A stretch of 64,000 bases of DNA, taken from contig JAHBMJ010000488.1 in assembly GCA_018398765.1 (NCBI GenBank), forward strand, positions 1 to 64,000. The letters are read 5' to 3'. The notes beneath the pieces are model-generated. The model did no database searches. It saw only the letters and a program-made list of their open reading frames with translations, and was not told the DNA's origin. Both the position numbers and the translations under genes were made by a program. This document shows positions 10,799-59,640 of this stretch, in pieces; position 1 is the stretch's first letter, and each line of letters begins with the position of its first letter. The stretch comes from Chromera velia. Lineage: Eukaryota.

Positions 10799-12259
10799 AT
10801 GACGGTCCGTGAAACTATGCCATTTCGTCGTTTTATCTTTTGCAGCATGACTTTGTCTTTCGCATAGCCACACCTGGCCGCATCGACACCACCTACCTTC
10901 TGTATATGCTTGCAGGACATAGCGCAGAAGCTGGTCGAGAAGGCGCGCACGGGCAAGCAGAAAGAGTGCGAAGATCTCCTGAAGCAGCAGGCGGATGTGC
11001 TCTTCGCAGAACCTCCGGTGAGAAGTGAGGGAGGCCTACATGTGCATGTGTGTGTATGTATGTGATCTCTCCAGAAAAAATGACTGACCTTTACACTCGC
11101 ATGCTGGTCTTCCTCCTTTGCCCCTGCCCAGCCCTGCGCATCTTCACTTTGGTTTTCCTGCGCAGAATGTGGCGTCCAACGGACTCCTTTCGGAAAGGAA
11201 TGCTTCACCGTGAGATGAAACAAAACAGAGCAACATAGGAAGAACAAGAAGAGAGCAGGAGAAGTCTTTTCACCTGGTGATTTGATTTGAGCCCGAGTAC
11301 GAGAGCGACAGCGACCAGCTTCTTCTCTTTGTTGTCTGGTTACCTGTGTACACATAAGTATATCAATGCTCCTATTCACACGTCTGTATGACAGAGACAC
11401 TGCTCTGCAGCGATGACATACTGATTGTTAAGTGCGTTGGCAAGAAAAGTCACGACCAAAATAAAAGAGAAGGATCGAGTGAAACGGAATGGAAAGGACA
11501 GATGACTGCAGTACGAAAAGTCCATGCGATGAAGCCCCAATCTCTCTCTCTCTCTCTCTCTCTCTCGTGTGAGTGAATGACTTAATCAATGAATGAATGA
11601 ATGAATGAATGAATAAATGAAAATGCACATGACTGAATGACTGAGTGACTGCAGTACGAGAGATCCGCTCTCTGGCACGCCGCGTGGAAGGGCTTCGAGA
11701 GCGTCTGCAGACTTCTGATCGACAAGGGGTCAAATGTCAGCCACAAGCTTCTTTCTCTCTCTGTGTGTCTGTCTCTGTGTGGGGGGATGGGTTGAAGGGG
11801 GGTGTCTGCATGCACGCTCGGCTACCGAACAACACAGGGGTGAACATGACTGAAAAGATTTAGAAAGAAGGAGAACAAAATGGTTGACCAAGTGCTTAAT
11901 AAATGCATGCGGCTATGGGTGTTCGTGATTTGCAAAGTCCCCCCGGGTAATCCACCAAAACCGCGATGGAGAGACAGCAGGAGCAAACACAAAGAAGAAA
12001 ACACGCACACAAAAGAAAATGACATGCACACACATGCAACGACACAATCAATCACTTGCAGGTGAACCACAAAGACCGAGAAGGAAGAACGGCCTTGCAT
12101 GAGGCTGCCTTCTACGGCCGCATCAACATCGCCACTCTGTTGCTGGACAGGGGCGCAGACATCAACATCAAGGACAAAGTACGTCAGTGAGTCAGTGAGG
12201 GAGGGAGCGCCTCGGTTTGTTTGACACTTCACTCTTTCTGTGTCTCGCTCTTTCTCTCC

Positions 12260-12298
<39 letters not shown>

Positions 12299-12318
12299 CC
12301 TCCTGGTGCTTCTGCATG

Positions 12319-12370
<52 letters not shown>

Positions 12371-12831
12371 GGAGAGAGCGACAGAGATCTCATTGTGAAG
12401 CAGGCGTCGATCCGTTTTTCTGCCTGCCTGCCCGCCTGCCCGATTGACTAACTGCAGAAAGGACGCACTCCGATCTTCCGGGCAGTCGAGGGCAAACGCA
12501 CAGAGGTCGGCAGAGAGAGAGCCTTTTGCCATGAGTCTCTATTCCTGTCTTTCTCTGTCCGTCTCTGTCTCTGTGTGTGTGTCCTCCCCCACCTTGGCTT
12601 CTTGTCTTCTTTTTATGACTAGAGGAGAGTTGGTGAGGGAGAGGGGGTATTCAAAGCTCCCGTATTTCATTATCTTTTCTTTTCTCTTCTCTTCTCTTCT
12701 CTTCTCTTCTCTTTGTGTGCATGCATATACACATGAATGAAAGCAGATGGTCCACTTCCTCATGGGCAGGGGCTGCGAGATGAACTTCGTTTGCCAAGAT
12801 CCGGTCAGTCAGTCAGCCAGTCAGTCAGTGA

Positions 12832-12867
<36 letters not shown>

Positions 12868-13660
12868 GTAGGTGAGTGCCTCTGTGGGCTTGGACCTTGG
12901 AAACAAGGACAGACAGAGGAATACATACACAGCGAGGCGGGGAGGGAGGGAGGAAAAAAAAAAGACCAAGTCAGTGAATAGCAGTTGCTGTCTGTATGTC
13001 TGGTTGAGGAGTCCAGGTCAACTCGTGCATGTGTAGGGTCCCCTCGCTCTTTTTTTTCAGTTCACGCCTTCAGTCACTTTGCAGGACATGTGAGTGACTG
13101 ACCAATGCGGTACGTTCCGCCGCATTCTTCTTTTAGTACCTTTCGAAAATTTCATTCATCGCTTTATGCTGAGTGCTCGCTGCTTGCAGGACGAGCAGAC
13201 AGAGCTTACCGTCGCCCACCTTGCCGCCTTTGGAGGCAACCCGCGTCTGGATCACTTTCTGTACTTCTCGGGGGCCTGGCACAACAGGTCTGTCGGTTTG
13301 TTGGTTGGTAGAGTTCTTTGTGCATTTCATTTGTGCATCTGCGCATTCACTTCTGTGTGTAGTTGATATTTGTTTGAGAGAGTCCATGTGTGTATCCGTG
13401 CAGATACTCTCTGCACGACCGACGCATGCATTTACATTCATATGCATTTATTTATTTAATTATTCATTTATTTTCTGTATGAAAGTAAATGTATGTATCT
13501 GTGCAGATACTCTCTGCACGACCGTCGCAAAGGGCTGGAGACTCGGAGGGACTGGTTCGAGAGGAGAAGGAGGGAGAAAGAGAGGGCGGCAGAAGAGGAA
13601 CGGTTGGATTTCCCTTTTTTCTTCCCTCTTTCTTTCTTTCTTTCTTTCTTTTTTTCTTTC

Positions 13661-13718
<58 letters not shown>

Positions 13719-16376
13719 TGTTTGTTTGTTTGTTTCTTCCTTTCTTTCTTTCTTTCTTTCTTTCTTTGTTTGTTTCTTTCTTTCTTTCTTTCTTTCTATA
13801 TTTCTTTCTTTTCTTTACTGATGTGTCCATCAATTCAGATCTCTGCCCATTATGACTGCTCGTCTGTGTCTAATTGCTGGCTTGCTTGCTTCCCTGCTTC
13901 TTCTCTGTGTGTCGGTCTTGAACTCGTGTTTAAATTCAATGAAGAAAATCGCTCATAAGTTCATTCATGAATGAAAGCAGGTGGAGGCAGAAGCAAAAGA
14001 GACTAGCCGAAGGTAAGGGCGAAGAGTCAGATGAGGATGACGACAACGGAGAGGACAATCTGAAGGGCGACAAAAAGAGGGTCCGTCGGTCGGCCTAACT
14101 GCCTGCCTGTCTCCCGGTTGTTTTGCCTCGATCTTCGGTGTGACAGTCTGTTTCTCGATTCGGCTGTTTCGTGGTCTGTCTGTCTGTCTGCCTACCTACC
14201 TGCCTTCCTGCCTGCCTATCTGTATGGCTGGCTGACTGCATCTCTATCTATTCGTTTGTCTGTCTGTCTGTCTGTCGCGTTGTCGGTAGTGGAATGTAAT
14301 CGATTTTCGTAAGGTGGAGTCGCATTTATCTGTCCTATGATTTTAGCTGATTCTCCGACTGATCATGCAGAAGCTTCGGCTGAAACAGTTGAAGGCCAAG
14401 CTCTTCTGGGGAAGTGACAAAGATTCTCTGGCAAAGAGAAGAGACCTCTGGCAAAAGTCAGTCAAGAGACCTAGCTCGGCACGTCTCCCTCAAGAAATTG
14501 AGGAAAGGAGAACCAGGGCTTGAAGGGGGGGAGAGTTGATTCTTTACTGCTGAACAATTGAAGACCTCACGCGTACTAATGTTGTGAGTGTCTCTCTGTG
14601 TTTCTTTCTTTGATTCGTTCATTCATTCATTTATCCGGGGGATAATTTTATCATGAGGCAACCGTATCGAAAGGGATGACTGTGCAGTCAGATTTGTCAA
14701 GGGCGCTCTCCAAATGCTGACGATTTCTCTCGTGTCACTGAAGCATTCACGTTCATTTCATTTGTCGAGTATCCGTGCAGGTGGGACCTGAACAAGGACG
14801 ACCGTCTGTCCGTTGCTGAGGCAGTGGAGGGCCTAACGAAACACTTGAAACTGAACGAGAAGGGACAAAAAATCGATAAGGCTATCGTCTTGAGAGCCTT
14901 CAAGCATGCAGCTGTCAGTTGCGAATCTGTGTCTTCTGGTATTTTTTTCTCCTGTTTTCTTCCTTCTTACTGCTTTTCTTTTTCTTCTTCTTCACATCTC
15001 TTCTCTTCTCTCTTCCTTTTTGTTATTTCCGCTGCGAGCCAGCGGACATGAATCGCCGTCGATGCATGCACTCTCGCAGCCTTTCTCTCCGTCCGATGAG
15101 AAGGTGCAGGGAGTTTCAGGGAGTGTCTGCATCCTTTCATTCAGTCTTCCTTCCATGCACCTCCTCGCCTCCTCTCCTTTCCCCTCTCGGCTGTCTTTCC
15201 GTCTTTGTGAGTGCCTGCCTGCAGGGCCACGAGGAGGAGGACGAAGAGGACCTCGAAGAGAAGGAAGAGGGCGGGGGAGAGGTGCCAACCTTGAGGGTGA
15301 CAAACTCGAAGGGCGACTTGAAGGAGGACGAAGAGGACAAGGACGGCAGTGACAAGGGGAGTGGGGGGAGCCAGTCGGGGACGTCCATTCCCTCCTCTGC
15401 AGTCTCTTCCAGGGCAGGGAGCAGAAGAGGATCCTTTGCAGAGACGGAAACAAAATCCGTTGGGGGAGCAAACTCGACACTCGGGAAGACCTCACGACCC
15501 GGCACCTCTAGGCACAAGAAGGGCGCCGTGGTCACCCACCTCCTCTGGCCCCAATTCAGACGCTTCCTCTACCTCGTCACTCAGTATTTCATGTTCCACG
15601 AACTCTTCAAGTCAGTTCTTATACATATTCTTTTGTACATGCAGGCATTCATACTTACATTCATTGCATATCGTTAGACACAAACTTGTTTTCTTGTTGG
15701 ATTGTTCCCGAAGAAAGGGTCTGCAAAGTCTTCAACTTCGATCAAAGAGCCAATTGGGAAACTTGTACTCCTCAATTGAATTTGTTCGAAGTTTTTCACG
15801 GTTCTGGGAAACAAAAAAAAGAGACCTCCAAGATTCCCACCCTCTGCGGAATACCTATCATGAGTGAAAACTCAAAAGTAAGTCCTCTATGATCATGAAG
15901 TCATCCATCATCTCATCCATTCGCATGCAGATACATCGACACATACCGCATGCATTCATTTTCATATACAGGGAATGAATGCATTCACCCATGGGCATCA
16001 TGTGCCTGCAGGGACATTGACACCGACGGCACGATGTCCATCGACATTCAGGAGTTCTCTCAGTCAGTCTCTCTCCCTATCAGTATGTGAGATTCTTTTT
16101 GAGAATGCACAGAAGGAGCAAGTGTGAATGTTCAGGTGTTGTTCCTGTCAGCGCGTGGACCACCTTTTCGTATCCTCAAGAGAAGCAGGGCCATCGAGAT
16201 ACTACTGAAAGTTGATTTTATGTGTACGTGACCACGAAAGCCTTCATTGGAGCTGACGGTGAATGGGTTCGAAGAAAGTCTGCGAGACAGATGGAGGGGA
16301 ACGACGGACACAGTCACATGTAGAGAGCCAAGTACACCCTAGAAAATCATGGAAGAGTCCACATGTATACACACTC

Positions 16377-16408
<32 letters not shown>

Positions 16409-17010
16409 TTTTTCTTTCTTTCTTTCGTTAATTCCGCATGCAGAGCCTCGGAGGCCATGAAGGAGGTCGGGTGTTTCATCCGAGACCCCGTGGCTGAGTT
16501 CGCTCAGATAGATACAGACAAGAGCGGGTGCCTCTCTTTCATGGAGTTCTGCGAATTCTGTTGGAGGAACTCTCTCGACCTGCCGTCAGTCAGCAGTTTC
16601 TTTTCTTTCACTCTTGCTAAAGCTTCTTTGTATCCAATTTCTCCCTTTCTTTTTTTTTCTCACTCTCGGATTCTGGCGAGGCCATTCTTCCAATCCATCC
16701 ACCATTGAGTGAACATTTCGGGGACGGACACTCACCTTTGTTTGGATCAGGAACTTCTTGCAAAAGCAAGCAAGCCTGGGGTACCTGAATGTCTTCTTCC
16801 TCCCCCCCCCCCCTCCATGCATGCTTGTGTGCAGATTCGACGACAACTACGAGCCTGACGACCAAACGAAAAAGATCATCAAGGGGGTCCGGCAGAGGAA
16901 GAGAATGAACGTCCTCGACAACCTCCCGAAGAATGAGAGGTGAGGTGGCCGATGTCAGTGTGTATGGGAAGGTATTTTTGTGTGGACGTCTTCAACTTAA
17001 TCTTGAACAC

Positions 17011-17051
<41 letters not shown>

Positions 17052-19080
17052 CTCATTGTGTATGCGCTCTGCATGCAGGTGGGATGCCCTTATGTCCATG
17101 ATTCCTGCCGGAAAGGATGCCGCAAAGGCGCGTGCCAAGCTGTTTGCCGATCTGGACTCCGGCAAGGGTCGGGGTGCGAACCTGCTGACGTACTCGGAGC
17201 TTTGGGGGAATCTTCGGAAGAAGTTCAGAGGGATGCAGCTGCCGGGGTGCCTCAACCTGTCGTGGCCAGTCAAGGCCGCGTTTGAGGCTGCACGGATGTC
17301 GGGAGGAGACAAGGTGAGTGTGGGAGTAAGTGAGATCGTTGATGAGAAAATGCGCAAATGAGTGTCTGTGTGCGTGCGGGTTGATTCTTTCTCGAAGAAA
17401 GAGAAAGTTGCCTGGTTTGAAAATCCCCTGTCGATCTGGATGTTTGAAGAGAGGGTGAGATCTGTTAGACAGATAGAGCTTCCCGTGAATTCAAGGGGCT
17501 ACTTCACTCTAGGGGAAAATTATTGTTTACGACGATCGCTCTCATACGCTGATCTGTCCATGCGTCGCTCACTGACTGGCCGACTGACTGCAGGAAAACG
17601 AAAGCCGCCTGGAGAGAATGAGCCTCTCGAGACCGGAATTCAGGGCCTTCTGTGAGTACTTGCGGGTGTTCATGACTCTTTTCAGGTTAGTCCGTGTCTA
17701 GTATCTATCTTCTGCTGCCTCTATCTCTTTCTGTGTGTCCCTTTTGATTGGATCCTTTTGCAAAGGTCTTCACACATTCGGAGTGTAGCTGCCGAAATTC
17801 ACGCCACCATTCTGCTTGATTGCCTGTCTCAGAGAACATTTTACTTTCAGTTGACGAAACAAATCCCGTACCTCTCCGCTGCTCTTTCCTTCCTTCCTCT
17901 AGTGCATTTGATGAAAGACCCCTATGGCTTTGGGAAGGCAGACTTAATCAACAAATTGAATTGCAAGGGCAAAATTCCTGAGAACATTTGATGTAACGAC
18001 AACTTGTGTACCCTTGTGTCTGTCTGTCTGTATGCATGGATGCGAGTGTATTATATAATGAATATGGGGAGGGCATGCAGGATGTTCGAGAACCTGGACA
18101 CTTCTGGAGAGGGGAGATTGGATTTCGACGAATTCCAACAAGGATGGAGCCAGATGTACGAGTGGGGGTTCAGGTCAGTCAGTCAGTGAAACACTTAGGG
18201 AGATCGAGGGTCATGACATCTTTTTCTTGGAGTCAACACACATGCGATACTTGCACTTGCTTTCGCAGCTCAGCCCCACTGAAGCGTTCTTTTGCAGCTT
18301 TCAAAATGAAACGTGATCCACAGGAAGAACCGCTCTTTCGGGAGTGCAACAAACTTTTTCTTTCCCTTTCCAACCCCCCGCTGCCGACAAACACGCCCCT
18401 GACTGCCCCACCCCAATCCACCCCTGCACACAGGATGGAGGGCACCTGCGAGGAGAACTTCCGAGAAGCCTCCCAGATGGGTCAGGGCAAGAAGGACCTC
18501 TCGGCCTTGGAGTTCTTCAATTGGGCCCTCAAACAGCCCCTCGACATCTCGTTCGAGAGCGATCCGGACCAAGAGGAGGAGACAGAGGACTCACAGGTTT
18601 GTCAGACAGAGACCGTGTCTTAGATTTTCATGTCCCGGAATCTCAACAAAAAATCGACGAACGGCCCCGAAAGCAGACAGATAGACAGAAAGAGAGACGG
18701 ACAAGCAAGGAAGCCAGCCAGCAAGAAATCCCTCAACCTCACGCACCTTTCATGTCTCTGAGCATGAATTTCCTTCTTCCCCTGCTTCTCTACAGAGTGC
18801 GCCCGCCAACGGATCATCCAACCGCACTTCCCCGGAGCCGCCCGCAGACGACGAAAAGGAAGGGGGAGATGGAGAACAAGCCGAGGCAACAGAAGGAGCA
18901 ACGTCCGGAGAAAGGGCAGACGCGTCAGCCCCAGCGGATGCAGGGGGGGGAGGAGAAGGAGGAGACGGCGTTGAGGCTGCCGGAGAGAGTGGGCCACCGG
19001 AGGATGGGGAGACGGCAGGGGATCCAGGGGACCCATCAGGTGCCGGAGGGGGAGAGGGCGAGGGAGGAGGGGGGGGGTGA
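10799..19080 (+). CDS. Ankyrin-repeat protein with two C-terminal calflagin (flagellar Ca2+-binding protein)-like EF-hand domains and an acidic Gly-rich tail; paralog A, multi-exon
   Basis: A 6-nt first exon ATGACG|GTCCGT is followed by ankyrin exons (SALWHAAWKG, GRTALHEAAFYG, GRTPIFRAVEG, TVAHLAAFGG). EF-hand loops include DLNKDDRLSVAE, DTDGTMSIDIQE, DTDKSGCLSFME and DTSGEGRLDFDE. The RAFK...QFRRFL...FHELF pattern resembles trypanosome calflagins. TGA at 19078-19080. Confidence 0.85.
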
Positions 19081-20773
19081 CCTGATTGAATGACCTGCTT
19101 GATGGTAGAACGATGAAATAACCGAAAACGAAATTCATTTTCTGTGTAGTGGAGTTCCGCCTGCATGAATTGTTGTTGTGACTGACTGACTACATGAAGG
19201 AAAATTTTTTGACACAGGGGGGAAAGGTGTTCTTCCTTGCTTGCTTGCTGGTTTTCTTGCTTGTTCGGCTGGCTTTGAGAGACGGCTTCTTTCAATATAA
19301 TGGTATCCTCACGGCTCCTCGGGCATCGATAGCAGAAGCCTTTCTCATGTAAATTTCTTCTGAACACGAACACACAAATCTAAGTGGAATGGGCAATTGG
19401 GAGAAGGATGGTAAGAGACAATCAAATGAGGGAGTCAAAGGAAGGGCTGATGTAACTAATGAACGCGATGTGGTCAGTTTGACCATTGGTGAAAGCCGTC
19501 AATCCTTTCCTTCTTCCTTGTGCAACAATGTGATCTTCTGCAACTAGACCGGGGCGTCTCTCGATTTGTGCGCCAATCGAGATGCAGAGAGAGGAATTTT
19601 ATGATGGAGATCAACCAGGCAGGGTTCTTTTACAGAGCAAAGGATCTGATCCCTGCACAATGTAGAATCTGCCTGCATGTGTTGTTCATCCCTTCAACCG
19701 GTTTCCAAGTCGATTGGTTGATTTTGCCGGACTCTCTTCGTTCGACCGCTCTGTCTAGCGCTGTGTGAAGATGAAACGCTCTGCAAACGAAGAATCAAAC
19801 AAAGCCGTTGATTCCATGCCAGCACTACCTAGAGCGCTGCCACGACGAGCCTGCCACTCAGCCTGGGTTGTGCAGTCACTTGTGCAAAGAGGAAAAAGAA
19901 GAGTAAGCTAGAGAGAGACGGCCTCAGACGGCCCTAAGTCATATATAGTCTAAATTCTAATCTCAATTATAATAGGTAAAGTTCCTGGTAAATAGCTATG
20001 TCCGTGCACAAAAGGCCATCCCACTCTAAATTCACCTGTTATTGTGAATATCTAGGTGAATATAACTCAGCTGAAGGTAAATAAGAATTCTATGACTTTA
20101 ATTTATATACAAAACTTATTTGTTACTTCAAGTTAGTATAGTAGTATGCCAGTGCCTCTATTTTGAATTATTCAAGTTACTATCCACTAGTAATAGTATT
20201 CTCATGAATTATCATGTCTGGTCTCATGTCATCAATCATCTTAGCGATCATCATCATCATCTCAATTTATATGCCATTCCTATCAGCCTATTTCTAGGCT
20301 TTTAGCTTCGAGACAGTGTCTTCTTATAATAGCGTTAAATTCATAACCATCATACCTAAATACATGAACAGTATGATGAACTTTTCCCGATGGGGTTTAA
20401 TTCATTTAATTTATTTGGCATTTTATTATCAGTATAGTTTTTAATATAGACTAATAAAAGCCTAGTAAGTTAAATTTTTATATTAGAGACTGGATTATAG
20501 AGATCAAATTTTGAGGATTATGAACCTTTTGTACTAGTTTGTACATAATCTATATGTAAGTAAATTGCTGGAATTATTGTATACATAGATTTAATATCTA
20601 ATATGGATTGTTTTGATAAAATAAAATAATTCGTTTACTAATTTGTTGTAACTTACGCTGTTTCTTTAAACTTTCTTACGCTCTCCATTATTCTCAATAG
20701 CACTTTTCTGTTTATTTTCTGTTTGCATGGATTCCTTCTTAATTCAGAGAAGGCTTCCCAGCTGCTGCCCCCA

Positions 20774-22726
20774 TCATGGAGTCTTCAGAGAGTCTGTGCC
20801 TGCATTTGACAGGGCAGCATTTGAATCTCCTTCTTCGGTCTTCTCCTCCTGAGCCGGCTCCCCCACTGAGGCACCACTGGCCTCTTCCGTCCCCTCGTTC
20901 TCTGGTGTTTCTTTTGCCTCCGTACACTGCCTGAGGAGTACTTTGAGCACTCGCTCCTGAAGCAGAGCACAGCGGCGCTTGTGGGCTGACGGAGAAGGGC
21001 CCCCCCCATCAGGGCCCTTCATGTTCCAGTGGGCTTTCTGACATTCCCGGGAACAGTAGACTGCAAGCTCGCACACCTTACAGTGCATCTGGGCTTGAGG
21101 TGTTTCCTTTCCGCACTTCTCGCAAGGGATTGTCCAGGCCTCCCTCACCTGTCGTCGGGAGCACATGGCATTCCTGTAGGCATATTCTTTCTGCGAAGGA
21201 GCGGGGGGGGGGGAATTTGCTGCCGACTCTCTCTGCAAGTTCGAAGAGACGAGGAAGGGGGGAGTCTCTTGCCCCACTTCGAGGGTGCGACCTGCCTCAA
21301 ACGATGTGAGGATCTGCTGCTCTAGAAAGTCATACAGGCTGTGGAGGGGCTGTTCAGACAGGCGGGGAAAAGCCTTTCGGAGGTGTCGGTGGAGGGGCGT
21401 GCAGCAGGAGCATTTGGCATCCTGTGACTGCCCCTTGTGGGCGGAGGGATTTGGGTCGAGATAGACGTGCAAAAGGCCGAGAAACTTCCTCATGACACCC
21501 TCTTCGAACTTGAATACGTACCTGGTAGATGATACTGCCCCGTTCATATTTTCGTCCTGCTTTATCACCTCTGTCCAGCTCCTTTCGAGCGATGCAAGTA
21601 ACTTGGCAATTTTTTTCCCGTCTTTTCGAACTCTTTCCGCAACTTTTCGATTCTGAAGGCTCATGAGGATTGCCTTGACTGTGAAAAGCAATTGGTGCCT
21701 TGCACATTGCCAATCATCCCCTGTCTCCATCTTCCTTTTTCCCCACCTGCATACTGCATCATCAAACAGCGATCGTGCTTCTGCGGCGGAATCTGCTGCG
21801 GCAAATGCGGACTTGTGAGCTTGCTTGATGGCTGTGGACATACCCAACCATTCAAATTCGGACACTGCCCCCCCCCAATTCCATATTCTGTCATAGGCTG
21901 TTGTGTGATCTTCTCGGGAGATCTTCCAAAGTGCGCGGAAGACTGGGGCAAATTCCAGTGAGGCATTTTCTTTCTTTTGCATGTCTGCAGGGGCACAGCA
22001 GTTCAAGCTCTCCACTGTCTGTCTGGAAAGGCCCCCAAATCGGACAAGAACCTTTACAAGACGGAATGCTGAAGTGACGTGCTGGTATGTATGCCCCAGT
22101 CGAGGAAAGAAGTTCTTCAATCCTAGTTTGAAAGCTGTGCTCTTCAGTACAATGTGACACAGGTGGGGTTTTGCCTCCATAAGGAGCTTTAGGAGATCTG
22201 CAGCCATGGCGACTACCCCAGAAGGGTACACGCCCTTTCTCTGTCGTGCCGAGCCACCGCAGAACATCCACAGGATGGAGTGGAAGAAGTCTTTGATCAA
22301 CAGAAGGTCATCCACCACCTCGATGAAGCCTGAGGGGTCTGCTCTTTGCATTTGAGAAAGAGGATGTCCCAACGGGCCGAAGCATTCAACAACCAGGTAC
22401 CTCTCAACAGAGCATACCAACATGTCGCGACTGAAATCGATTGGCTCAAAGCCAGACTTGAACTCGGAAACTTTCTGCTGCAGCCACTGAAAAGTGCAGC
22501 CGTGCACTGCTCTTTCCACATGGTCTTCTCCTGATTCCGAGTCTGTTGTATTCAACAACGACAATGAGGTTTTAAGTAATTCAACGCATTCAAGCATTTG
22601 CAGCGCTGCACTTCGCAAAGCGGTGTACTTCGAGCTCGCAAGGGCGAAATCAGGTATCTTCTGACCAACAGAGCCGTTCTCTGGGGCCTGGAACAAAGTC
22701 TGCTCCAGGAACTGTGGCGTGCCCAT
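20774..22726 (-). CDS. Intronless ~650 aa protein with a C-terminal MYND-type zinc finger
   Basis: Long open frame with first in-frame ATG at 22726; motif CEKC...CKVCELAVYCSRECQKAHW...HKRRC. Confidence 0.85.
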   Translation of the reverse strand: MGTPQFLEQTLFQAPENGSVGQKIPDFALASSKYTALRSAALQMLECVELLKTSLSLLNTTDSESGEDHVERAVHGCTFQWLQQKVSEFKSGFEPIDFSRDMLVCSVERYLVVECFGPLGHPLSQMQRADPSGFIEVVDDLLLIKDFFHSILWMFCGGSARQRKGVYPSGVVAMAADLLKLLMEAKPHLCHIVLKSTAFKLGLKNFFPRLGHTYQHVTSAFRLVKVLVRFGGLSRQTVESLNCCAPADMQKKENASLEFAPVFRALWKISREDHTTAYDRIWNWGGAVSEFEWLGMSTAIKQAHKSAFAAADSAAEARSLFDDAVCRWGKRKMETGDDWQCARHQLLFTVKAILMSLQNRKVAERVRKDGKKIAKLLASLERSWTEVIKQDENMNGAVSSTRYVFKFEEGVMRKFLGLLHVYLDPNPSAHKGQSQDAKCSCCTPLHRHLRKAFPRLSEQPLHSLYDFLEQQILTSFEAGRTLEVGQETPPFLVSSNLQRESAANSPPPAPSQKEYAYRNAMCSRRQVREAWTIPCEKCGKETPQAQMHCKVCELAVYCSRECQKAHWNMKGPDGGGPSPSAHKRRCALLQERVLKVLLRQCTEAKETPENEGTEEASGASVGEPAQEEKTEEGDSNAALSNAGTDSLKTP

Positions 22727-24769
22727 GTTTGTCACCCCCCGCGTCAGGCCTCTGGGTGCTGTTGCAGAAACATGCGAGCTGAAGAAGGTGGGCGGACCTG
22801 GTGTTGCGCGGACTCAGTGCGAATTTGTTTTCGATTTGTACGCGAAGGATTGGCGAAAGCACAACGAATGGATAATTGGTCCTCTAGTAAGCTGCAGACT
22901 CAATAACAGAAGCTTGGGCCAGGACGATCATGCAATCGAGAAACCTCGCTGTCAGAGCGAGTTCTGTTGCACAGAATTGGCATGTTGCACATGCAATGCA
23001 AGAACAAACCCCTACATAAAATTTTGACAAAAAAAAAATTAAAAGCACGGATCGACATAGTTTATATAGACATATGCAGCTAGATCGAGTCTGCAAGGCT
23101 CGCGCGCGCGTTTTGCGCGATAAAAACTCGGAAATCGCGCCCATGTGCGCAACCTCGCGCGCGGGCGTGTCTCCCGAGCCTATATAGCTCAACCAACACT
23201 ATAACTAACGCCGGGCCGCGGAAGGTATAGAACCCGTGGCCCGTACGTGGTAGTACGTGGGATCAAGAGAGGTCGATCGAGGGGTTCGCGCCGGGGGGCG
23301 TCGGAGGCCTCCCTACCTAAAAAGGTTCCTAAACTCAGTTCCTAGTGGTGCTTAGCAAAGAAAAAAACGTCTTTTCTCCTTTTAAAATTGTATTTCCAAA
23401 ATCATAAAAATTGAATAAGAAAAGCTTTGTCTAACTTTATCTATACATCAACTTAGATTCAACTAACCCATATACAAATCAACCGATTCATGCAGTGAAA
23501 AAGTGCTCATACTCTGTGCTTAGCATCTGTTCTGTATCTGTAGTTGTCTTTAGTAACAGTTTTCCCTTCCCGTTTTCACAAAAAGTAATTGTAAAAGCAC
23601 ATATGCATATTGATACATACATCAAATTGTATTAAATTGTTGTGTATTAATCTGCATAGTCAAATCGAAAGTCTTTCTAGGAGTCTTTTTTTTTTGTAAA
23701 TTCATTTAAACTCACTGCTTGAATTCATTTAAGTTTATTAAATTCATTTATAAATTCCCTTAAAGTTACGCTATAAGTTTTGCAAACTTAAAAAAGTAGT
23801 TTTTGTTTTAAATATAGAGCTTTTATGATTGCGTGAAGTCTAGCGTGAAGTCGATTTTTATTATGATACATATACAGAAAGAAGGATTTCCACAACAAGG
23901 AGGAATATCGATTTACTAGTAGAGCATGCTCATTTCTATTTGAATACTATCCCTAGTCACGGTATCAACTTCGCATTGACTCAATTGTCTTCATTGCTGT
24001 GCATGACCTTTTACCTGAATCGAAAAAACAGCCTATTGAGTGCATGTTCAGACAAAGAAATGGTACCGACTCAATCAAACAGCAACGGCCAGTCAATTGT
24101 CTGAGTGTGCATATTCAAATGCACTCACTTAAATAAGAAAGCAAACAGGCAAGTAGAGCAGCCCTGCAGCCATTGAAGTCCGCTCGAAAGAGACTTGCAA
24201 GGATTTCTTTTCTTCAAAGTTCCCTCCCTCCTCTCACCCCCACTGGATGGATGACATAAATTCCGTCTGTCGTTCTAGATTCTGTTGCTGTCTCATCAGT
24301 CCATGCGTGAATCAGACGTCTGTCAACCATCATCCCCAATGCAACTCCCCTGCACAAGACAATTAATGTCATGCAATCTGCAGACCTCACTCACTTATTC
24401 GATCAGTCAATCATTCAAAAGAGAATGGAGTTTCATTTTGTTTTTCTTTTCTGGTCTTTTTGCGACTGTGTCTGACCGTGTTGATCTTTCGGTCGAGTGA
24501 TCCGTCCAGATGCATATTCTCGTAGTCACTTCTTCTAGTGCGTGTTCAGGGAAGTCTTCATTCATTTGTTCATGTATTCTTCTGCACATTTGCCTTCCCT
24601 CACGTCCGATCGCAAAGCCCACCAGAGAAGAGAAGAGAAGAGACGAGCACACGCGAGAAAGGGACGGTGGTGGGAACTTCACAAGTGGAAGAGAAAGAAC
24701 TAGGGCGAGAAAGAGAGAGAGACACAGACTGTCACAGTCAGACACGCAAAAAAGAAGTCACAAGAAGGT

Positions 24770-25943
24770 TCAAGAGGGAGGTTGCTCTTCTGCCGCCCCT
24801 CCCCCCTCGCCCCCGCCTCCCTCCCCGGAGGCCTCAGGTGGAGCCTCTGCTTCTCCTTCTGCTGCTGCGGCACCTGTCTCAGCCCCCCCTGCTTCGGCAG
24901 CCTCTCCCTCTCCCTCTTTTTCTTCTTTGGTGCCCTCTGCAGGTGCTTCTGCTCCTTCTGTCTCCCCCTCTTCCTCCTTTGTATTTGGGGCAATCGGCAG
25001 ATCTGGAGTGAGAGCCAGGGGCTCATCTGCCCCCTCTTCCTCTTCCTTCTTCTCCTGTTCATCCTCAGGATCTCCCTCGAAGGAAATCTCCAGAGGCTGC
25101 CCCATCGCCCAGTTGAAAAACTCCAGAGCAGAAATGCCATTCGACCCCTGAGCCATCGAGGCCGCCTTCGAGAAGTGATCCTCGGGGGTGCCCTCCATAC
25201 TGATGAAAGGAACATGCAGACACGAGCGCAAAGGAAAGTAAGGGTAGACATGAGAAGGAAGAAAAAATCATAAAAGGAAAGGTCCTCTCTCTTGTCTCAT
25301 GCATGAAAGAGAAACTCTAATTCAATCTGAGATACTTTCTGGATGTTTTAGTCAAAACCCATACGTACACCCCAAAAGAAACGCATATTTGAACATCTGC
25401 TCATCAGTCAGAAAGATGCACAAACATCACATTTGAAGAGAAAAACAAAAAAGCACAGAGAGAGAGAGAATGCACTCACGTGAATCCCCAGTCGGTCATC
25501 TGAGACCACCCAGTAGAGAATTCGCTCTCATCCAGAATTCCCTCTCCAGAGGTGTCCAGTTGCTCGAACATCCTGCACTCACGCATTCAGTATGTACACA
25601 CAGTCATTAGCTCTCTCCACACATATGTTGAAATAAGTCGAAGGAAAGGAAAACAGACCGAATGCACCCATGCACTAACTGTACAGCATTGGCATTCACA
25701 CGAGAACCCCATTTCTGCAGAAAGGGAAAATATGAATAAACAAATCCAAAGAAAAGCAGGCAGATTGAATGGAACCCCCCAACCAACCCACCAAAAAACC
25801 GACAGACAGACCTGAAGAGAGTCATGTACAGGCGGAGGTACTCGCAGAAGAACCGGAACTCCCTGCGAGAGAGGGAGGACCTGCCCAGAGAGTCCTCGCC
25901 CTCGTCGATCATTTGGGTGTTTCGGAACGCCGCCTGTCCAAAC

Positions 25944-25976
<33 letters not shown>

Positions 25977-27955
25977 GCAGACAGACAAGAGTGGTACGTG
26001 TGCTCAGATGTGTTCGCGTACAGGAAGATACAGCATGGAATGTAGAGTGCACTCGGAGGTGGAAGGAGACACAGGTTGCTGGATGGATCCGAAGATTAGT
26101 GCTGAGACAGAGAGAGATAGACGGACAAAGTTTCTCTGGGCAATTCAGCACAAATCATCTGAATGGAATATGATCTTGCAAGAAGGTGTCTTCCCCCTGC
26201 CCACCTTGATGGGCCACGAAAGATTGAGGCAGCCAGGCAGAGGGACCCCCCTAAACCGTTTGCGGAAATTTCCCCACAGCTCGGCGTACGTCAGCACACC
26301 CGCCCCCCTCCCTTTCCCAGTATCAAGCTCGTCGAAGAGCTTGTCCTGGGCCTTTCGGACGTCTTTGCCTTTGCCTGAACAAAAAGAGGAGGGCGGTGGG
26401 TCCATAGTGAACAATAGAACAGAAAGAGGAGCGGACCGCAGAAACTGTATCTGCGTAAAGAGATAACAAAGCAGCTGGCTCTGAGCATCTTTCAACATTG
26501 TGTGTTGTTCTCGTGTCTGCGTTTTTCTTCTCCTCTCGATTTTCTGTCTTTGTCAGGCCCGGACCACGGGATCCTCTCTCTCTGTCGCAATGAGCTAGTA
26601 GTACTAGCACGATGAACAAGGAAACACACAAAAAGAATTGACAGAGGGAGAGACAAAAAGACAGACAGACAGACTATATGTTTCTTCTTTTTCTTCTCCC
26701 TCCTTTTCTTCATGAACACAACAGACAAAAAGAAAGAGAGAACAAAGACAAAAGCCAGACAGACAGACAGACAAACGGACAGACAGACAGACAAACAGAC
26801 AAACAGACAGACACACAAACAGACAAACGAACACACCTGCGGGAATGGAGTCCAGAAGTTTCTGCCACTTTTCGCTTGGTGTGAGGTCATCGAGGACGTT
26901 CCTCTTCTTCTTTTTCTTCTTCTCCCCCCCATCCCCGTCCTTGTCGTCGTCGTCTTCCAGGGGAGGGTCCAAACTGAACACAATACAGAAAGAAGAGGAA
27001 AATAAAAGAGGAGAGGAGAGAGTGTCAGCAGGGATGGGTATGAGATGTAGCTTTAGTAGACTTTTGATGAATCGCATCGGCACTTGTTGCGACACTCAAG
27101 GTCCCTTCTGTGCATGTGTCTGTGTAGCACTCTTAGCTGAAAGAGGAGGGACTAAGTGTTGCCTTATGGTCCCTGCATGTATGTACTGACGGTAGATCGA
27201 GGGCGTTGCCCCAGCAGAAGTCGCAGAACTCCAGGAGGTTGATGCGTCTGCTTCCATCTGCATCGATTGTGTCGAATTCCTTCTCCGCGTCGTCGATGAA
27301 GATCCCGATCTGCCAGACGGAGGGAGGGGGGGAGAGGGCACACAGAGAGAGAGGAAAGCCAAAGGAGTTAAAGAAAGAAACCTTGAGAGTGCACTGCCCG
27401 GAAGACTGCCAGATGGCCCAACACAGTTCAGAGACAGGATGACTCTTGCATGGAAAAAGACAGTTACAAGAAACAAAAAAAAAGGGGACGAACTCATTTG
27501 AGTTCACCACAGGAACACAAAGAGAGAAAGGGGGGGAGAATCTTTTTGTGTTTGTGCACTTTCAAGAAGGAGGGTATGCTGGATGGGAGACAAAGATCCC
27601 ACTGCCTGCTTTTGGAGTCCGTGTGGCTCGTTTATTTAGTTTCCCTAGAGCTCCAAAGACGGTGAAGCGACTGACCTCCTTCATCAATCCAGCAGCCCTG
27701 CACCCATCCGTGCAGACACACAGACAGACAAACAGAGAAAGAAAGAGTGCGTCAATACAGAGGAAAAGGGCCGAAGGACAGCGCACTATGAGTTTAACTT
27801 ATCTGACTTTGTGCCTGCCAAAAGAGAATGCCCGCCTGTTCAAATCCGTTTTTCCAAAGGCTCATTTGGGCCCTCCAGAGTTTCAAATGGCTCTCAAGTG
27901 ACCATTCAGTAGCGTGACACAACTTTGAAAAAAGGGACAATGTGAAATATGCACA

Positions 27956-27994
<39 letters not shown>

Positions 27995-29829
27995 AGAGAG
28001 AGGGAGAGGAGAGAGACGTGAGAGAACAGGGACAGAGATAGCAAAAGACAAGCGGGAAGGAAACCAACCCTGCGAATTCCTTTTTGTCCAGTTTCATGGT
28101 GCCATCGGCGTCCATTTGCCTGCATGCGTAGTCAGTATTGGCATTTATGAACTCTTTTCGCCAGTCTCTGGTGGCATCTGCAGACCTACTGACGTAAATA
28201 CTGCAGCAAATGCATCGTTTGCAAGCTGGTTGTATCGCTAGATGGCAACATAGGGAGCCAGAGTACTGGAGTGCCAGCATGCCCAGGCGAATGGATTCGT
28301 TCATACTGCTGTTCCTGTAGAGTCTGGAGGTGAACAGAAAAACGAAATGCCCTCGGACAAAAAAGGAGACAAAGACAAGGTGCATAAGCAGGCGGTATGG
28401 TACACAGAATTTCAACGCTCATAGAAAAACGAAAACGTACAGGCGAGAAGAGCGTGGAGGGAGTGACCTTTCTCCCCTTTCAGATAATGTACATGGTTGG
28501 ACTGATAACCTTTATGGCTGTAATGAAAAGCGACACAGTATGAGTGTAAACAAAGTAGTGGCCAACGCAACGGACTCGGACATCCATACGTCTGTATGGA
28601 TGAATACCCATGCGTGTACTCCCTCCCTGCACGACTGACTTGAACAGTTCGTAAAAGATGAAGTAGAGGCTCATGAGGTAAAGGAATCTTCGGAAGTGAG
28701 GGAACTCAATGAACCTGATCACCTTCTGTGAGCCCGACTTCTTCTTCTTGGACTTTTTCTTTTTCTTCTTCTTCCCCCCGCCCAAGCTGCCACTCGAATT
28801 TGACCCTTTCGACCCTCTTCTAGAGCCGCCACCCTCTTCCTGAAGTGACTCCCTGCTCGATTGACGCGACCCTGAGGGGGAGGTGCCCCCGCTCTTCTGG
28901 GAAGACGTTTCGGATTTGCCATCTGAGCCAGTGGAGCCTTCTGCAGGCGTCGTGCGGCCCTCCGCGTCCTCGTCCTCGCCCCCCTCTCCACTCTTCTCGC
29001 TTCCCTTCTGGCTCCCTTCGTCGTCTCCGTCTCCTTCGTCGTCCTCGTTGTCGCTGTCGCCTCCATCCTGTAGACAAACAGGGGGCTAGTGAATCAGCGA
29101 GAATATTTTTCTTCACACACAAGTCACACACACACACACACACACACGCAACGCATGCATGCATGCATGCATGCATGCATGCAAAAAAACACAAATCAGC
29201 AGACATAAAGATACGCATAGATAGACACAAAGATCGACACAGGTACAACAAAAGAAGATGCACGTGAGTACGGAGGCACAGAACAAAACGTTTTCTTCTC
29301 CAGTCCTTCTTACCGTCGCATTCGTCCCCGTACTGCATCTTTTCTTCTTTTTTTTCACTCACGGAATCTTCGGAGAAACTACTTGAGCATGCACTGATTC
29401 TTACGGGGCACACAATCGAATTTTTCTGCTCTCCTGACTGGTGCTGCATACAGCCTAAGTGTCTGTCTGGCTGACTGACTGAGTGACTGACCACTGCGTG
29501 TTTGTAGGCGCATTTGATGATGTTCCTGTCGAGCTTGTGGCCCTTGCTGTCGAGATCCAGCTTCTTCCTCAGACCGTCGATGGCCTCGCTGACCTGCAGA
29601 CAGACATGCAGCAAGATAGACAGACGGACAGACAGACACAAAGACAGACAGACAGACAGACAGAGAGACAGAGAGACAGACAGACAGAGAGACAGAGAGA
29701 CAGAGAGACAGAGAGACAGACAGACAGAGAGACAGAGAGACAGAGAGACAGACAGACAGACAGGCAGACACAAAGACAGACAGACAGACAGACAGACAGA
29801 GAGACAGACAGACAGACAGACAGACACAA

Positions 29830-29860
<31 letters not shown>

Positions 29861-29889
29861 GAGACAGAGAGACAGACAGACAGAGAGAC

Positions 29890-29926
<37 letters not shown>

Positions 29927-29957
29927 CAAAGACAGACAGACAGACATACAGACACAA

Positions 29958-29988
<31 letters not shown>

Positions 29989-30857
29989 TAGACAGACAGA
30001 CAGACAGACAGATAGACAGACAGACAGACAGAGAGACAGAGAGACAGACAGATAGACAGAGAGACAGACAGGCAGACACGCAGACAGACAGACAGACAGA
30101 CAGACCGACAGACAGACCGACAGACAGACCGATAGACAGACGTTCATGGCGTGGGTAAAGTCAAAGTGCGACCACTGGCAGAAGAGTGTGACTGAGCGAG
30201 AACCCTTCTTCATTCCAATCTAGCTGGAGACGTTCGACGGAAAGATTGTACAGAAGAACAGACAGATGGACAGCCCCACAAACTTGTACATATGTGTACA
30301 GAGAGGTGGAGATATATACATGCGTGTACACACTGTAGAGAACAAAGAGACCCGCCTTTCTCTGAAAAACGTCTGACCGACCGATAGTTTTTTGTCTTTG
30401 TTGACGTCCCACTTGTCCCACAATTTCTTTCTCTTCTTCAAATCGTCGTCGTTGTTTCCGTACGGGAGACGTTTCTTCAGTTGTTTCATCAGCTGCTTCC
30501 TCCTCTTTTCCTGCTAAAACAAACAGAATAGATAACATACACGCACGCAGAGAAATCGACTGAATCAAACAAATAGTCGTCAGAAAAATAAGCAAGGACA
30601 ACCGCACAGACGACTCGAGGGAGACCCACAAAACAAAACAACACGATCAAGGAGACCAAGCGGGAGGCCCTGAATTCCACCGACCGCATCATTGTCATCG
30701 TCGTCGTCATCATCGTCTGAGGAATCGTCGCTCTCCCCAGCAGCTAGACGCCTCTGCTTCTCGCGCCATCTGCATCCGGTCATTCATTCACCAATGCGTT
30801 TTCTTTCCCTTCCCCCTTTCCCCGTCTCTACCCCCTTCCCCCCCCCCCCNNNNNNNN

Positions 30858-30894
<37 letters not shown>

Positions 30895-31057
30895 GCGTCC
30901 GTAGAAAGAGAGTTCAATGTTCCAATCCCTGTTTATTAGAATGGGGACACAAAAGCGGGTAACAGTTTAAGACAGAGAACTACATGAGTTCCTGGGAAGA
31001 CACAACAGAACACAGAAGACGGGTACATAAACAGGACAGGTTGAGCATACCCCTCAA

Positions 31058-31132
<75 letters not shown>

Positions 31133-32244
31133 GCACTCTCAAGCCCCACACGTCCACTCACGTACCTTGCCTCTTTGGCAGCCCTCTCCTTCTCCTTCCT
31201 CCGCTTCTCGAACCACTCTTTCCTCGACTCCATGCCCTTCCTCCGGTCGTGGAGAGAATACCTTCACAGATACATACATTTACTTTCATACAGAATGAAA
31301 TACATATAGAGAGAATACCTGCAGCCAGGCCGGCATGTGAGGACAGGAGGACAGAGGAGTCATGCAGATTTAAAGATAATTCATAAATGATAAAACGTTC
31401 AAAGAAGAGAGAGAAAAGATCAGAAGAGAAGAGAGAGGCAAAAGGAGAGGAAGCGTACACCTACAAGACTACATGGAGTCCGGATATGTACTGCTTCTGA
31501 CACATGCACGCTCAGGGAACACAAAAGGGCTCGCATTGCCCTCATTCCTCCTGCACTCATGCCATCATCCTCCACACAGACAGACAGACAGACAGGCAGG
31601 CAGAGACACATACAGGAAAGAGCCACAGACAGGCGGAGACACATACAGGCAGGGAGACAGCCCATCAGAAACGGACCTGTTGTGCCAGGCTCCGGAGAAG
31701 AAGAGAAAGTGCTCGAGAGGAGGCTTCCCACCGAACGCAGCGAAGTGCGCACACGTCAGCTCAGTAATCTCATCCTGAAAGAGGAGGAACGGAGAGGAGG
31801 ATGCGGTGTCAGGGGGGAGGGAGGTCTGTGCGTTTATTCTCTGACCACTTTTTCATTCGAGCGGAGGATTTAATTTCAATCAAGAAGTTAGCAGGCAGTC
31901 AGTCAGTCAGTCGGTCAGTCAGTCAGTGAGTGAGTGAGTGAGTCAGTCAGTCAGTCAGGAAGTGAGTCAGTCAGACCGGCATTCGGTCAGACCGGCAGAC
32001 AGGAAGACAGGAAGACTGCTCAAAAGGTCTGTCACCCAGGGAGGGCCAGTGGCAGTATCTCACTCTTGCAGTGAGGCCGTCTGGACACTTGGTCATGCTC
32101 TCTCTCAGTCACTGACCGACTGACCGGATCTTGGCAAACGAAGTTCATTTCGCATCCCCTTGCCATGAGGAAGTTCACCATCTGCACAGACACACACAGA
32201 GAAGCAAACACAGAGACAGAGAGAGACACGCAGACAAACACACA

Positions 32245-32298
<54 letters not shown>

Positions 32299-33438
32299 TG
32301 AAAATGACCATTTGAAAACAAAGAGAATAGAACAGGGGAACAGGGGGAAGGCGTGGAACGTGAAACTCTTCTTTTGCCTTCCCTGATTGTCTCATTTCTT
32401 TGCTGAATGCTTTTAGTAGAGCTCCCCTGCGTGCATCAAGTGGTGCAGGTCTGCTTCCGTCCATCCTGATGAGCAAAGATGTCATTCCGAAACCCCCCCC
32501 CCCACCCATGCAGACTCACTAACTGACTGACTGACATCGTCCCTCTTCCCCTCCACAGCCCTGAAGATGGGGGTGCGTCCCTTCTGCAATCAAGCAGCAT
32601 TCAATCACGGAGGCGCACCCACCATCATCAAGTGAACGGAGAGAAAGGGAAGGCAAAGGAGAAAAGGAGAAAATTACATACTGAGAGCTAGACTGGGATA
32701 AAGAGACGGGCAGAAACAAGTTTGCACAGTCAGTCGAACACCTCCATGCACCCATCCATGCACAACCCACCCAACGCAGCACACCCATCGACACTAGAAG
32801 AAAGAAGCAAATGAACAGACACAAGAATCAACAGGGGACGAGGCAGAGAGGGAGAAAACCTGACACACGCCCAGGCCTCCCCCCCTCACTGACTCACTGA
32901 CGTACTTTGTCCTTGATGTTGATGTCTGCGCCCCTGTCCAGCAACAGAGTGGCGATGTTGATGCGGCCGTAGAAGGCAGCCTCATGCAAGGCCGTTCTTC
33001 CTTCTCGGTCTTTGTGGTTCACCTGCAAGTGATTGATTGCGTCGTTGTATGCGTGTGCATGTCGTTTTCTTTTGTGTGCGCGTTTTCTTCTTTGTGTTTT
33101 GCTCCTGCTGTCTCTTCATCGCAGTTTTTTGTGGATCAAATTGGCTTTGATGCAGTAGGTGCCGGAATTAATTCAGGGAGAGCAAGCGCGCATTCGCACA
33201 CATGATCGATTCATTCCACTTCTGGTACAATTCAATCGACATGCAGAAAGCAAGCCGTCACGGAAGGAGGGAAGGAGAGAACAGGGGACCAAAGAAAGTC
33301 TAGAGACAGCGCTTTCGTCAACCAACCCCCCCAGATACAGAATCACGTCCATGTATGCATGTATCCCTGTCAATTTTCAGAAAGAGCTCGGGAGTATTCC
33401 CTCTCTCTTGTCGGACGTGCCGCCTTCTTCACCCTGCG

Positions 33439-33469
<31 letters not shown>

Positions 33470-34344
33470 ACCGGATCGATCGAAGACCTCCACAGCCAAC
33501 CTCCTAGGCAGACAGATACCCGCTGCCCGCCCACCCATCCAACCAACAAGACACCGACCTTCTTCTACTCACACATACGCACATGCACACACACACACAC
33601 ACACAGACACACACACAGACACACACACACACACACAGCGCGCGTGCGAGCGCAACCTTCTGACTGACGTTTGACCCCTTGTCGATCAGCAGCCGACAAA
33701 TGCTCTCGAAGCCCTTCCACGCAGCGTGCCAGAGAGCTGTCCGGTCATACTGCAGTGATTCAGTCATTCGTGTCTTGATTCAAAGGAGAAACAGTGACCC
33801 GCGTTCCTCCAAATGAAGTACTTCGAATGCTCGCATGTCCATTCTCTCATGGCACAAAACCCACTCAAGATTGGCAGGCTGGGTCGGACACCATCGGCTT
33901 GCAACCCGATGAAGGTCAGTCATACTAGACGGATTCATTGTGACAATGCGCGAGAAAAAGAAGGGCCCATCGAGCTGCGTGCAGTTTTGGCCCCACTTAT
34001 CTAGTGCTTAGTGCAGAAAATGGAACACTAAGTATTGTACATGGACGTGCGGACGGATACACCTCGTGCAAAAAAAACATGCAGGTCAGTCACTCAGGTT
34101 CGGCGTGTTGTTGTTGTCTTGAAATGAAATGAGGGGCGGACCGACCGGCGGTTCACAGAAATTTACATCCGCCTGCTGCTTAATCATGTCCTCACATTCC
34201 TTCTGCTTCCCTGTCCTCGCCTTCTCGACGAGCTTCTGCGCTATGTCCTGCATGGAAAGATTCGTGGAGGGACATGATACACACATGTGAATCACAGAGT
34301 TGGCCGAAGTTCTGGAGAAAAGATCCAACACAACTGACTGTCAT
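24770..34344 (-). CDS. Ankyrin-repeat plus double calflagin-like EF-hand protein; paralog A', inverted relative to A
   Basis: First exon ATGACA|GTCAGT at 34344. Exons are homologous to A (DIAQKLVEKARTGKQKEC, TALWHAAWKG, WDVNKDKKLS, DADGSRRINLLE, CLNLSWPIK, ALEFFNWA). TGA at 24770-24772. A small N gap at 30850-30857 lies in an intron. Confidence 0.85.
29616..30140. repeat. ~525 bp (GACA/GAGA)n intronic microsatellite
   Basis: Directly visible, inside intron 29594-30381 of paralog A'. Confidence 0.95.

Positions 34345-59603: not shown

Positions 59604-59640
<37 letters not shown>

What the first reader, a model, noticed from the sequence alone, without database searches (positions are those of the whole stretch)
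14457..30381. Eight discordant intron positions between two neighbouring paralogs
Seen: introns only in A are 14457-14780 (WQK/W), 16940-17078 (NER/W), 17314-17593 (GDK/E) and 18597-18795 (tail). Introns only in A' are 29594-30381 (KLS/V), 27310-27675 (MKE/I), 26375-26836 (IPA/G) and 25934-26204 (PIK/A). The aligned region of the other paralog is uninterrupted in each case, while the ankyrin-region introns are shared. Several sit at AG|G-like proto-splice sites. Established: intron positions are normally very stable between paralogs. Inference: rapid intron gain or loss after the duplication, possibly linked to the junction-duplication process.
Basis: partly seen in the sequence, partly recalled or inferred. 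Interest (0 to 1): 0.75.

Follow-up and report, generated by a model that had tools for sequence, protein, structure and literature searches.

The report
Old paralogs with reshuffled intron positions
Two neighbouring copies of an ankyrin and EF-hand gene in the alga Chromera share 14 intron positions and differ at ten, but their silent sites are almost saturated, so this is likely ordinary long-term intron turnover (probably mostly gains) rather than a rapid or new process.

Summary
Gene A (10799-19080, +) is Chromera velia Cvel_3533 and A' (34344-24770, -) is Cvel_3535. Each has 19 introns: 14 shared, 5 A-only, 5 A'-only. 'Rapid' is not supported: synonymous sites are near saturation (pS 0.68; 49 of 76 four-fold sites differ), core protein identity is about 60%, and the discordant introns retain no resemblance to exons or to other introns in the window. 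No discordant intron carries a junction duplication; the only clear one is at a shared intron. Three further discordant pairs lie 31-39 nt apart. This, the richer AG|G-like junction repeats and the location in the longest ancestral exons favour gains over pure loss. Polarity is unproven because no outgroup DNA was obtainable; the third paralog Cvel_9307 is the obvious test. Short conversion-like tracts link the 5' halves. Verdict: a genuine but ordinary case of paralog intron turnover.

The parts
10799..19080 (+). Gene A = Cvel_3533, 20 exons, 824 aa, ankyrin repeats plus two FCaBP-like EF-hand modules
24770..34344 (-). Gene A' = Cvel_3535, 20 exons, 830 aa (public model lacks exons 3, 4, 8)
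14081..14370 (+).
   Evidence: RNA-type loose end at 14370
14457..14780 (+). A-only intron 10, phase 2; 31 nt from A' intron 10
   Evidence: joint in 4 of 4 runs
16940..17078 (+). A-only intron 15, phase 2, AG|G, 5-nt junction repeat; 32 nt from A' intron 16
   Evidence: joint in 4 of 4 runs
17314..17593 (+). A-only intron 16, phase 0, AG|G, next to a 3-residue insertion absent from A' and Cvel_9307; 39 nt from A' intron 17
   Evidence: joint in 4 of 4 runs
18597..18795 (+). A-only intron 19, phase 0, in the low-complexity tail (alignment uncertain)
   Evidence: joint in 4 of 4 runs
30511..30684 (-). A' intron 9, phase 0, partner of A intron 9
   Evidence: contig length fit
29594..30381 (-). 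A'-only intron 10, phase 0, holds a long tetranucleotide microsatellite
   Evidence: contig length fit
27310..27675 (-). A'-only intron 14, phase 0, leaves a 22-nt exon; the empty site in A is AG|GT; best (weak) candidate for gain by tandem duplication
   Evidence: contig length fit
26375..26836 (-). A'-only intron 16, phase 1, AG|G, next to a 2-residue duplication absent from A and Cvel_9307
   Evidence: contig length fit
25934..26204 (-). A'-only intron 17, phase 0, AG|G; the empty site in A is AG|GC
   Evidence: contig length fit
11950..12215 (+). Conversion-like tract: exon 4 (117 of 117 nt identical) plus intron flanks, 95% identical to A' 33136-32870
13473..13506 (+). 3' end of shared intron 7, 33 of 34 nt identical to A' 31295-31262; both introns also carry an upstream decoy copy of the acceptor junction

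Best explanation
A and A' are inverted neighbouring paralogs that share 14 intron positions and differ at ten; they likely arose by an old local duplication and have since likely changed introns one at a time, probably mostly by independent gains at AG|G-like sites in the longest ancestral exons of the EF-hand half, plus one likely boundary slide (the 12-nt pair). Shown: the structures, the splicing of the A-only introns, near-saturated silent sites and erosion of all ten introns. Inferred: the age of the duplication, the direction (gain), and that short near-identical 5' tracts come from gene conversion between the inverted copies. With saturation no rate can be computed; eight events plus one slide over that depth need no special mechanism.
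For: Age: core pS 0.68 (JC dS about 1.8), 49 of 76 four-fold sites differ, dN 0.36; core protein distance A-A' 0.57, half the distance to Cvel_9307 (1.15, 1.16; 338 columns). Erosion: near-pair introns align no better than unrelated introns (scores 22-28; null 95th percentile 47), and the printed hits of 7 of 10 discordant introns elsewhere in the window are short simple-repeat or splice-motif stretches (hits of the three most repeat-rich were not printed). Gain over loss: pure loss needs a 23-intron ancestor with three extra exons of 31, 32 and 39 nt, while only 1 of 36 present internal exons is 40 nt or shorter, and it needs all 8 losses to miss the first 9 positions (p 0.006). Under independent gain the empty 5' part is unremarkable (p 0.06-1.0), and 6 of 8 events fall in the 219- and 432-nt ancestral exons. 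Discordant introns have longer junction repeats (p 0.016) and more non-typical GTG donors (4 of 10 against 2 of 28, p 0.031), the pattern described for young introns (PMC3488318 passages). Two sit at lineage-specific insertions polarised by Cvel_9307.
Against: No outgroup gene structure was obtained, so no single event is polarised. Junction microhomology is also predicted by NHEJ-mediated loss (PMC3020277 passages). The context statistics are several uncorrected tests on ten introns. Indels also flank shared introns 5, 6 and 8. Under independent gain, three pairs within 40 nt are unlikely in some settings (p 0.004-0.32 over six settings; the 40-nt cut-off was chosen after seeing the data). 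Synonymous saturation gives only a lower bound on age, and the Chromera substitution rate is not known here. No ortholog outside Chromera appeared, so the duplication may be lineage-specific.
Confidence: 0.6

Rival explanations
1. Coupled replacement (near-intron-pair model): the ancestor had one intron in each region; in one copy a new intron arose 31-39 nt away and the old one was then lost because the micro-exon between them was disfavoured.
For: Three pairs at 31, 32 and 39 nt plus one at 12 nt; chance of 3 or more pairs within 40 nt under independent gain is 0.004-0.06 in five of six settings. The model is described in PMC2891723 (parts 1-2 read).
Against: With a 70-nt minimum exon and linker and tail excluded, the clustering is ordinary (p 0.32). 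Two of the distances are not multiples of three, and the paired introns share no sequence. It needs two events per pair, no fewer than independent gain.
Confidence: 0.18
2. Differential loss from a 23-intron ancestor, by reverse-transcript recombination (3' bias) or microhomology-mediated deletion, each copy losing four introns.
For: All events lie 3' of intron 9 (p 0.006 under uniform loss), as cDNA-mediated loss predicts. Most empty sites are precise. Two A'-only introns (16, 17) are adjacent. Elevated microhomology fits NHEJ loss. A 22-nt exon is tolerated in A'.
Against: It requires three extra micro-exons resolved on opposite sides in the two copies; only 1 of 36 internal exons is 40 nt or shorter. 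Most would-be losses are not adjacent.
Confidence: 0.16
3. Recent, rapid turnover driven by junction duplication or an introner-like element.
For: A real junction duplication exists in A intron 7 (22 of 22 nt). A' intron 14 resembles the next exon start (11 of 20; null 0.006 per intron, about 0.06 over ten).
Against: Silent sites are saturated; 0 of 10 discordant introns have a junction copy clearly above background; similarity to flanking exons beyond the splice consensus is not raised (p 0.15 and 0.55); no intron family is seen in the window.
Confidence: 0.05
4. Gene-model or assembly artefact.
For: The public A' model is itself imperfect (three exons missing). The A' junctions were confirmed by length only.
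Against: Direct joints for A, base-exact length fit for A', open frames, and unbroken DNA across four of the introns in a second run.
Confidence: 0.01

Closest known systems
Intron gain and loss in paralogous gene families (Babenko 2004, Castillo-Davis 2004, Roy and Penny 2007, seen only as cited in review PMC3488318 section 10)
   Same: Old duplicates that share a majority of positions and differ at the rest; gain against loss is disputed without outgroups.
   Different: A single pair in a chromerid. I found no paper on chromerid paralog intron positions or naming these genes.
Near intron pairs and intron sliding (Lehmann et al. 2010, PMC2891723)
   Same: Positions 12 and 31 nt apart meet the under-32-nt definition; 32 and 39 nt fall in their first under-50-nt screen.
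   Different: Between paralogs, not orthologs; much deeper divergence; three or four pairs in one gene pair against 31 in 12,386 Drosophila ortholog sets.
Introners and introner-like elements (e.g. Amoebophrya, PMC7789003 passages)
   Same: An alveolate with lineage-specific intron positions.
   Different: Canonical GT-AG ends, no family similarity seen in the window, no sign of recent insertion.
FCaBP/calflagin-like EF-hand proteins (Pfam PF22592)
   Same: Residues 243-314 score 44.8 bits, above the 27-bit cut-off; Atlas look-alikes of residues 236-750 are FCaBP/EF-hand clusters.
   Different: Fused to ankyrin repeats, with two modules; function untested.

Membership tests
Near intron pair (PMC2891723) | Two positions under 32 nt apart in homologous coding sequence | tested here: met
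   12 and 31 nt meet it (2 of 4 pairs); 32 and 39 nt do not
Near intron pair (PMC2891723) | One position ancestral and one novel, judged by an outgroup | not testable with these tools
   No outgroup DNA: no genome held; metagenome scan gave only unrelated ankyrin loci
Intron sliding | Distance a multiple of three, same phase | tested here: inconclusive
   Met for the 12-nt and 39-nt pairs (2 of 4). The 39-nt stretch is partly conserved in all three paralogs, which argues against a slide there
Intron sliding | Sequence similarity between the two introns | tested here: not met
   Scores 22-28 for 4 of 4 pairs, null 95th percentile 47; not expected at this depth
Gain by tandem exon duplication | AG|GY proto-splice site at the empty site | tested here: inconclusive
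   2 of 9 scorable empty sites (A' introns 14 and 17); one site falls in a gap
Gain by tandem exon duplication | Intron resembles the flanking exons | tested here: not met
   No excess over shared introns (p 0.15, 0.55); one marginal case, A' intron 14
Introner elements | Many similar introns at unrelated sites | tested here: inconclusive
   Only short simple-repeat or splice-motif hits in the 64-kb window for the 7 of 10 introns printed; whole genome not available
cDNA-mediated intron loss | Precise, 3'-biased, adjacent losses | tested here: inconclusive
   3' bias present, one adjacent pair, direction unknown
FCaBP-like EF-hand protein | PF22592 above the gathering cut-off | tested here: met
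FCaBP-like EF-hand protein | Calcium binding and flagellar location | not testable with these tools

The most novel reading that the evidence does not exclude
Chromera relocates introns over 30-40 nt inside conserved coding sequence far more often than other eukaryotes: a new intron appears beside an old one, which is then removed, so intron number stays fixed (19 and 19 here) while positions drift. Three such pairs in one gene pair would be the local trace of a genome-wide, exon-length-governed replacement process.
Probability: 0.12. Interest if true: 0.62.

Novelty: new member of a known kind. Interest (0 to 1): 0.3.

Why it matters
As it stands it is a clean, transcript-supported example of intron turnover between old paralogs in a chromerid, a lineage for which my searches found no intron-position study. 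It would matter more if a genome-wide survey showed an excess of near intron pairs, because chromerids are the intron-rich free-living relatives of apicomplexans (PMC4501334 passages) and would then be a system for watching how introns are gained and replaced. One saturated pair cannot give a rate.

Tried and rejected
Outgroup structure: no whole genome is held. The metagenome scan returned 2 confirmed of 409 pattern matches, both intronless AT-rich ankyrin loci matching only the ankyrin part, and these were rejected. Orthologs: word-based searches with A exon 16, A 236-750 and Cvel_9307 120-720 returned only Chromera proteins (capped candidate sets, and even missed Cvel_9307). The exhaustive search listed the best 150 of 302,551 hits, of which 147 were multi-ankyrin proteins matching the N-terminus and 3 the Chromera paralogs. 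A Vitrella ortholog is therefore not excluded. Sequencing runs: no RNA holder listed on record; X3-X6 are guessed RNA from one study, and six rows with share 0.00 were not used. In one search the joint table was swamped by microsatellite artefacts, so only piece coordinates were used. In one search, 9 of the 10 introns inside the stretch were listed as joints; shared intron 13 was not, but record positions bridge it. No other paralog pair exists in the window for comparison. The PDB sequence search gave ankyrin matches in the 60 rows shown. Earlier findings: nothing in 3 look-ups. Rejected: junction duplication as the cause; introner origin within the window; simple sliding for the 31-, 32- and 39-nt pairs; recent whole-5'-half conversion as the sole reason for shared ankyrin introns (silent sites there are also near saturation outside exon 4). 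Four of 16 supplement files of PMC4501334 were not searched.

Full report
Identity. The window is Chromera velia. A search with one exon of gene A returned a single 824-aa protein, Cvel_3533, identical to my model of A, 10799-19080 on +. The partner A', 34344-24770 on -, is Cvel_3535; the public protein matches my 830-aa model except that it lacks exons 3, 4 and 8. The genes face each other tail to tail around an intronless open frame. The protein has ankyrin repeats followed by EF-hand regions, with PF22592 (FCaBP EF-hand) above cut-off and FCaBP-like Atlas neighbours. A calcium-sensing role is an inference.

The observation. All eight listed introns are GT..AG at the stated coordinates. Each gene has 19 introns; 14 coincide in site and phase, 5 are A-only and 5 A'-only. 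The extra pair (A 14081-14370, A' 30684-30511) is 12 nt apart in the same phase at the edge of an acidic linker and is most simply one intron whose borders slid. Contigs from four probable RNA runs of one study show joints at 4 of 4 listed A-only introns in 4 of 4 runs, and a loose end at 14370 that matches exon 9. For A' the evidence is arithmetic. In X3 and X5 the pieces for exon 12 and exon 20 sit at record positions predicted to the base by the spliced model. The contigs of A and A' begin 661 and 658 nt before exon 12, both at CDS position 264 inside the identical exon 4. A second DNA run has unbroken pieces across four of the discordant introns. The RNA-type contigs differ from the window at a few sites and by a 9-nt deletion, yet use the same junctions.

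Age. In the alignable core (382 codons) pS is 0.68 and pN 0.28; 49 of 76 four-fold sites differ, where third-position composition predicts about 0.70 at saturation. A third paralog, Cvel_9307, is equidistant from A and A' (distances 1.15 and 1.16), while A-A' is 0.57. The duplication is thus old on the synonymous clock, and 'rapid' cannot be claimed. No ortholog outside Chromera appeared, but those searches were limited, so the split is not dated against Vitrella. The premise of stability is also too strong: PMC3488318 (section 10 and passages read) reports numerous gains and losses in paralogous families.

Junction duplication. I searched each of the 38 introns for a copy of its own acceptor or donor junction. 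The only clear case is shared intron 7 of A (22 of 22 nt); 0 of 10 discordant introns stand clearly above background. Similarity to flanking exons beyond the splice consensus is not raised (p 0.15 and 0.55); A' intron 14 is a marginal candidate for tandem-duplication gain (11 of 20, empty site AG|GT). Hits of seven discordant introns elsewhere in the window are short simple-repeat or splice-motif stretches; hits for the three most repeat-rich were not printed.

Direction. The discordant positions come in near pairs: 12, 31, 32 and 39 nt. Pure loss would need three extra micro-exons, whereas 1 of 36 internal exons is 40 nt or shorter, and a strong 3' bias (p 0.006). Independent gain explains the 3' location without extra assumptions, since 6 of 8 events fall in ancestral exons of 219 and 432 nt. 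It explains the closeness only moderately (p 0.004-0.32 over six settings, cut-off chosen after the fact). Discordant introns have longer junction repeats (3.0 against 1.6 nt, 10 against 14 positions, p 0.016) and more GTG donors (p 0.031); AG| (p 0.062), AG|G (p 0.17) and three other context tests were not significant. The review describes this as a young-intron pattern, but PMC3020277 (passages) predicts microhomology for loss as well. Two discordant introns abut insertions that Cvel_9307 shows to be derived in the intron-bearing copy, but indels also flank shared introns. I therefore favour gain-dominated turnover (0.6) over coupled replacement as in PMC2891723 (parts 1-2 of 6 read; 0.18) and pure loss (0.16). 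The Cvel_9307 gene structure would decide it and could not be fetched.

The 5' half. All 8 introns up to exon 9 are shared, against 6 of 16 positions beyond (p 0.006). Exon 4 is 117 of 117 nt identical, with 95% identity over 268 nt including intron flanks, and the last 34 nt of intron 7 match at 33. These are likely short conversion tracts between the inverted copies. The N-terminal protein is 87% identical (176 of 202) against 52-65% in the core, so conversion or stronger constraint may help keep the 5' structures alike; silent sites there are otherwise near saturation.

Literature. Searches for Chromera with intron gain/loss, introner or intron positions and for the gene names found no study of this; the library lacks most subscription journals. 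PMC4501334, PMC7789003 and PMC1386723 were seen as passages only.

Verdict. A real, transcript-supported difference at eight positions plus one likely slide between old paralogs: a new member of a known kind, interest 0.3. The residual curiosity is the density of near intron pairs, which a genome-wide survey could test.

Noticed in passing
window 13378-13529 (+) and about 31325-31262 (-): Shared intron 7 ends in a 33 of 34 nt identical stretch in both paralogs despite saturated exons, found nowhere else in the window, and both introns carry an upstream decoy copy of the acceptor and exon start. By eye, use of the decoy would hit an in-frame stop. Either a short conversion tract or a conserved alternative-splicing element. 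A' uses an AAG acceptor here, and the public model skips this exon.
   Followed up: partly
window 11950-12215 and 33136-32870: Recent conversion-like tract covering exon 4 and intron flanks (95% over 268 nt; exon 100% identical).
   Followed up: yes
Cvel_3535 (P0002): The public gene model lacks exons 3, 4 and 8; RNA-type contig lengths need exon 8 and the 3' part of exon 4.
   Followed up: yes
window about 11505-11525: A weaker decoy copy of the exon 3 acceptor junction about 150 nt upstream in A intron 2 (16 of 22).
   Followed up: partly
introns of both genes: Donors are mostly GTCAG/GTCGG-like and often run into GTCA repeats, while many acceptors follow ACTG repeats, so intron ends look like short inverted repeats; seen by eye, not tested.
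   Followed up: no
window 22813-20777 (-): Intronless open frame of 679 codons between the paralogs, covered by low-depth RNA-type contigs, flanked by AT-rich spacers; presumably Cvel_3534 (inferred from numbering).
   Followed up: no
window 35247-37031 (+): Long open frame with what looks like a ubiquitin-like segment, head to head with A' (resemblance recalled, not tested).
   Followed up: no
window about 59600-63600 (-): Exons that look like magnesium chelatase subunit H (resemblance recalled, not tested).
   Followed up: no
window 15278, 15413, 18913 and 3' ends: RNA-type runs X3-X6 differ from the window and from DNA run X2 by substitutions and a 9-nt in-frame deletion: likely another strain or allele.
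   Followed up: no
L001, L002: AT-rich metagenome contigs with tandem intronless multi-ankyrin genes sharing upstream sequence; unrelated to this finding.
   Followed up: no
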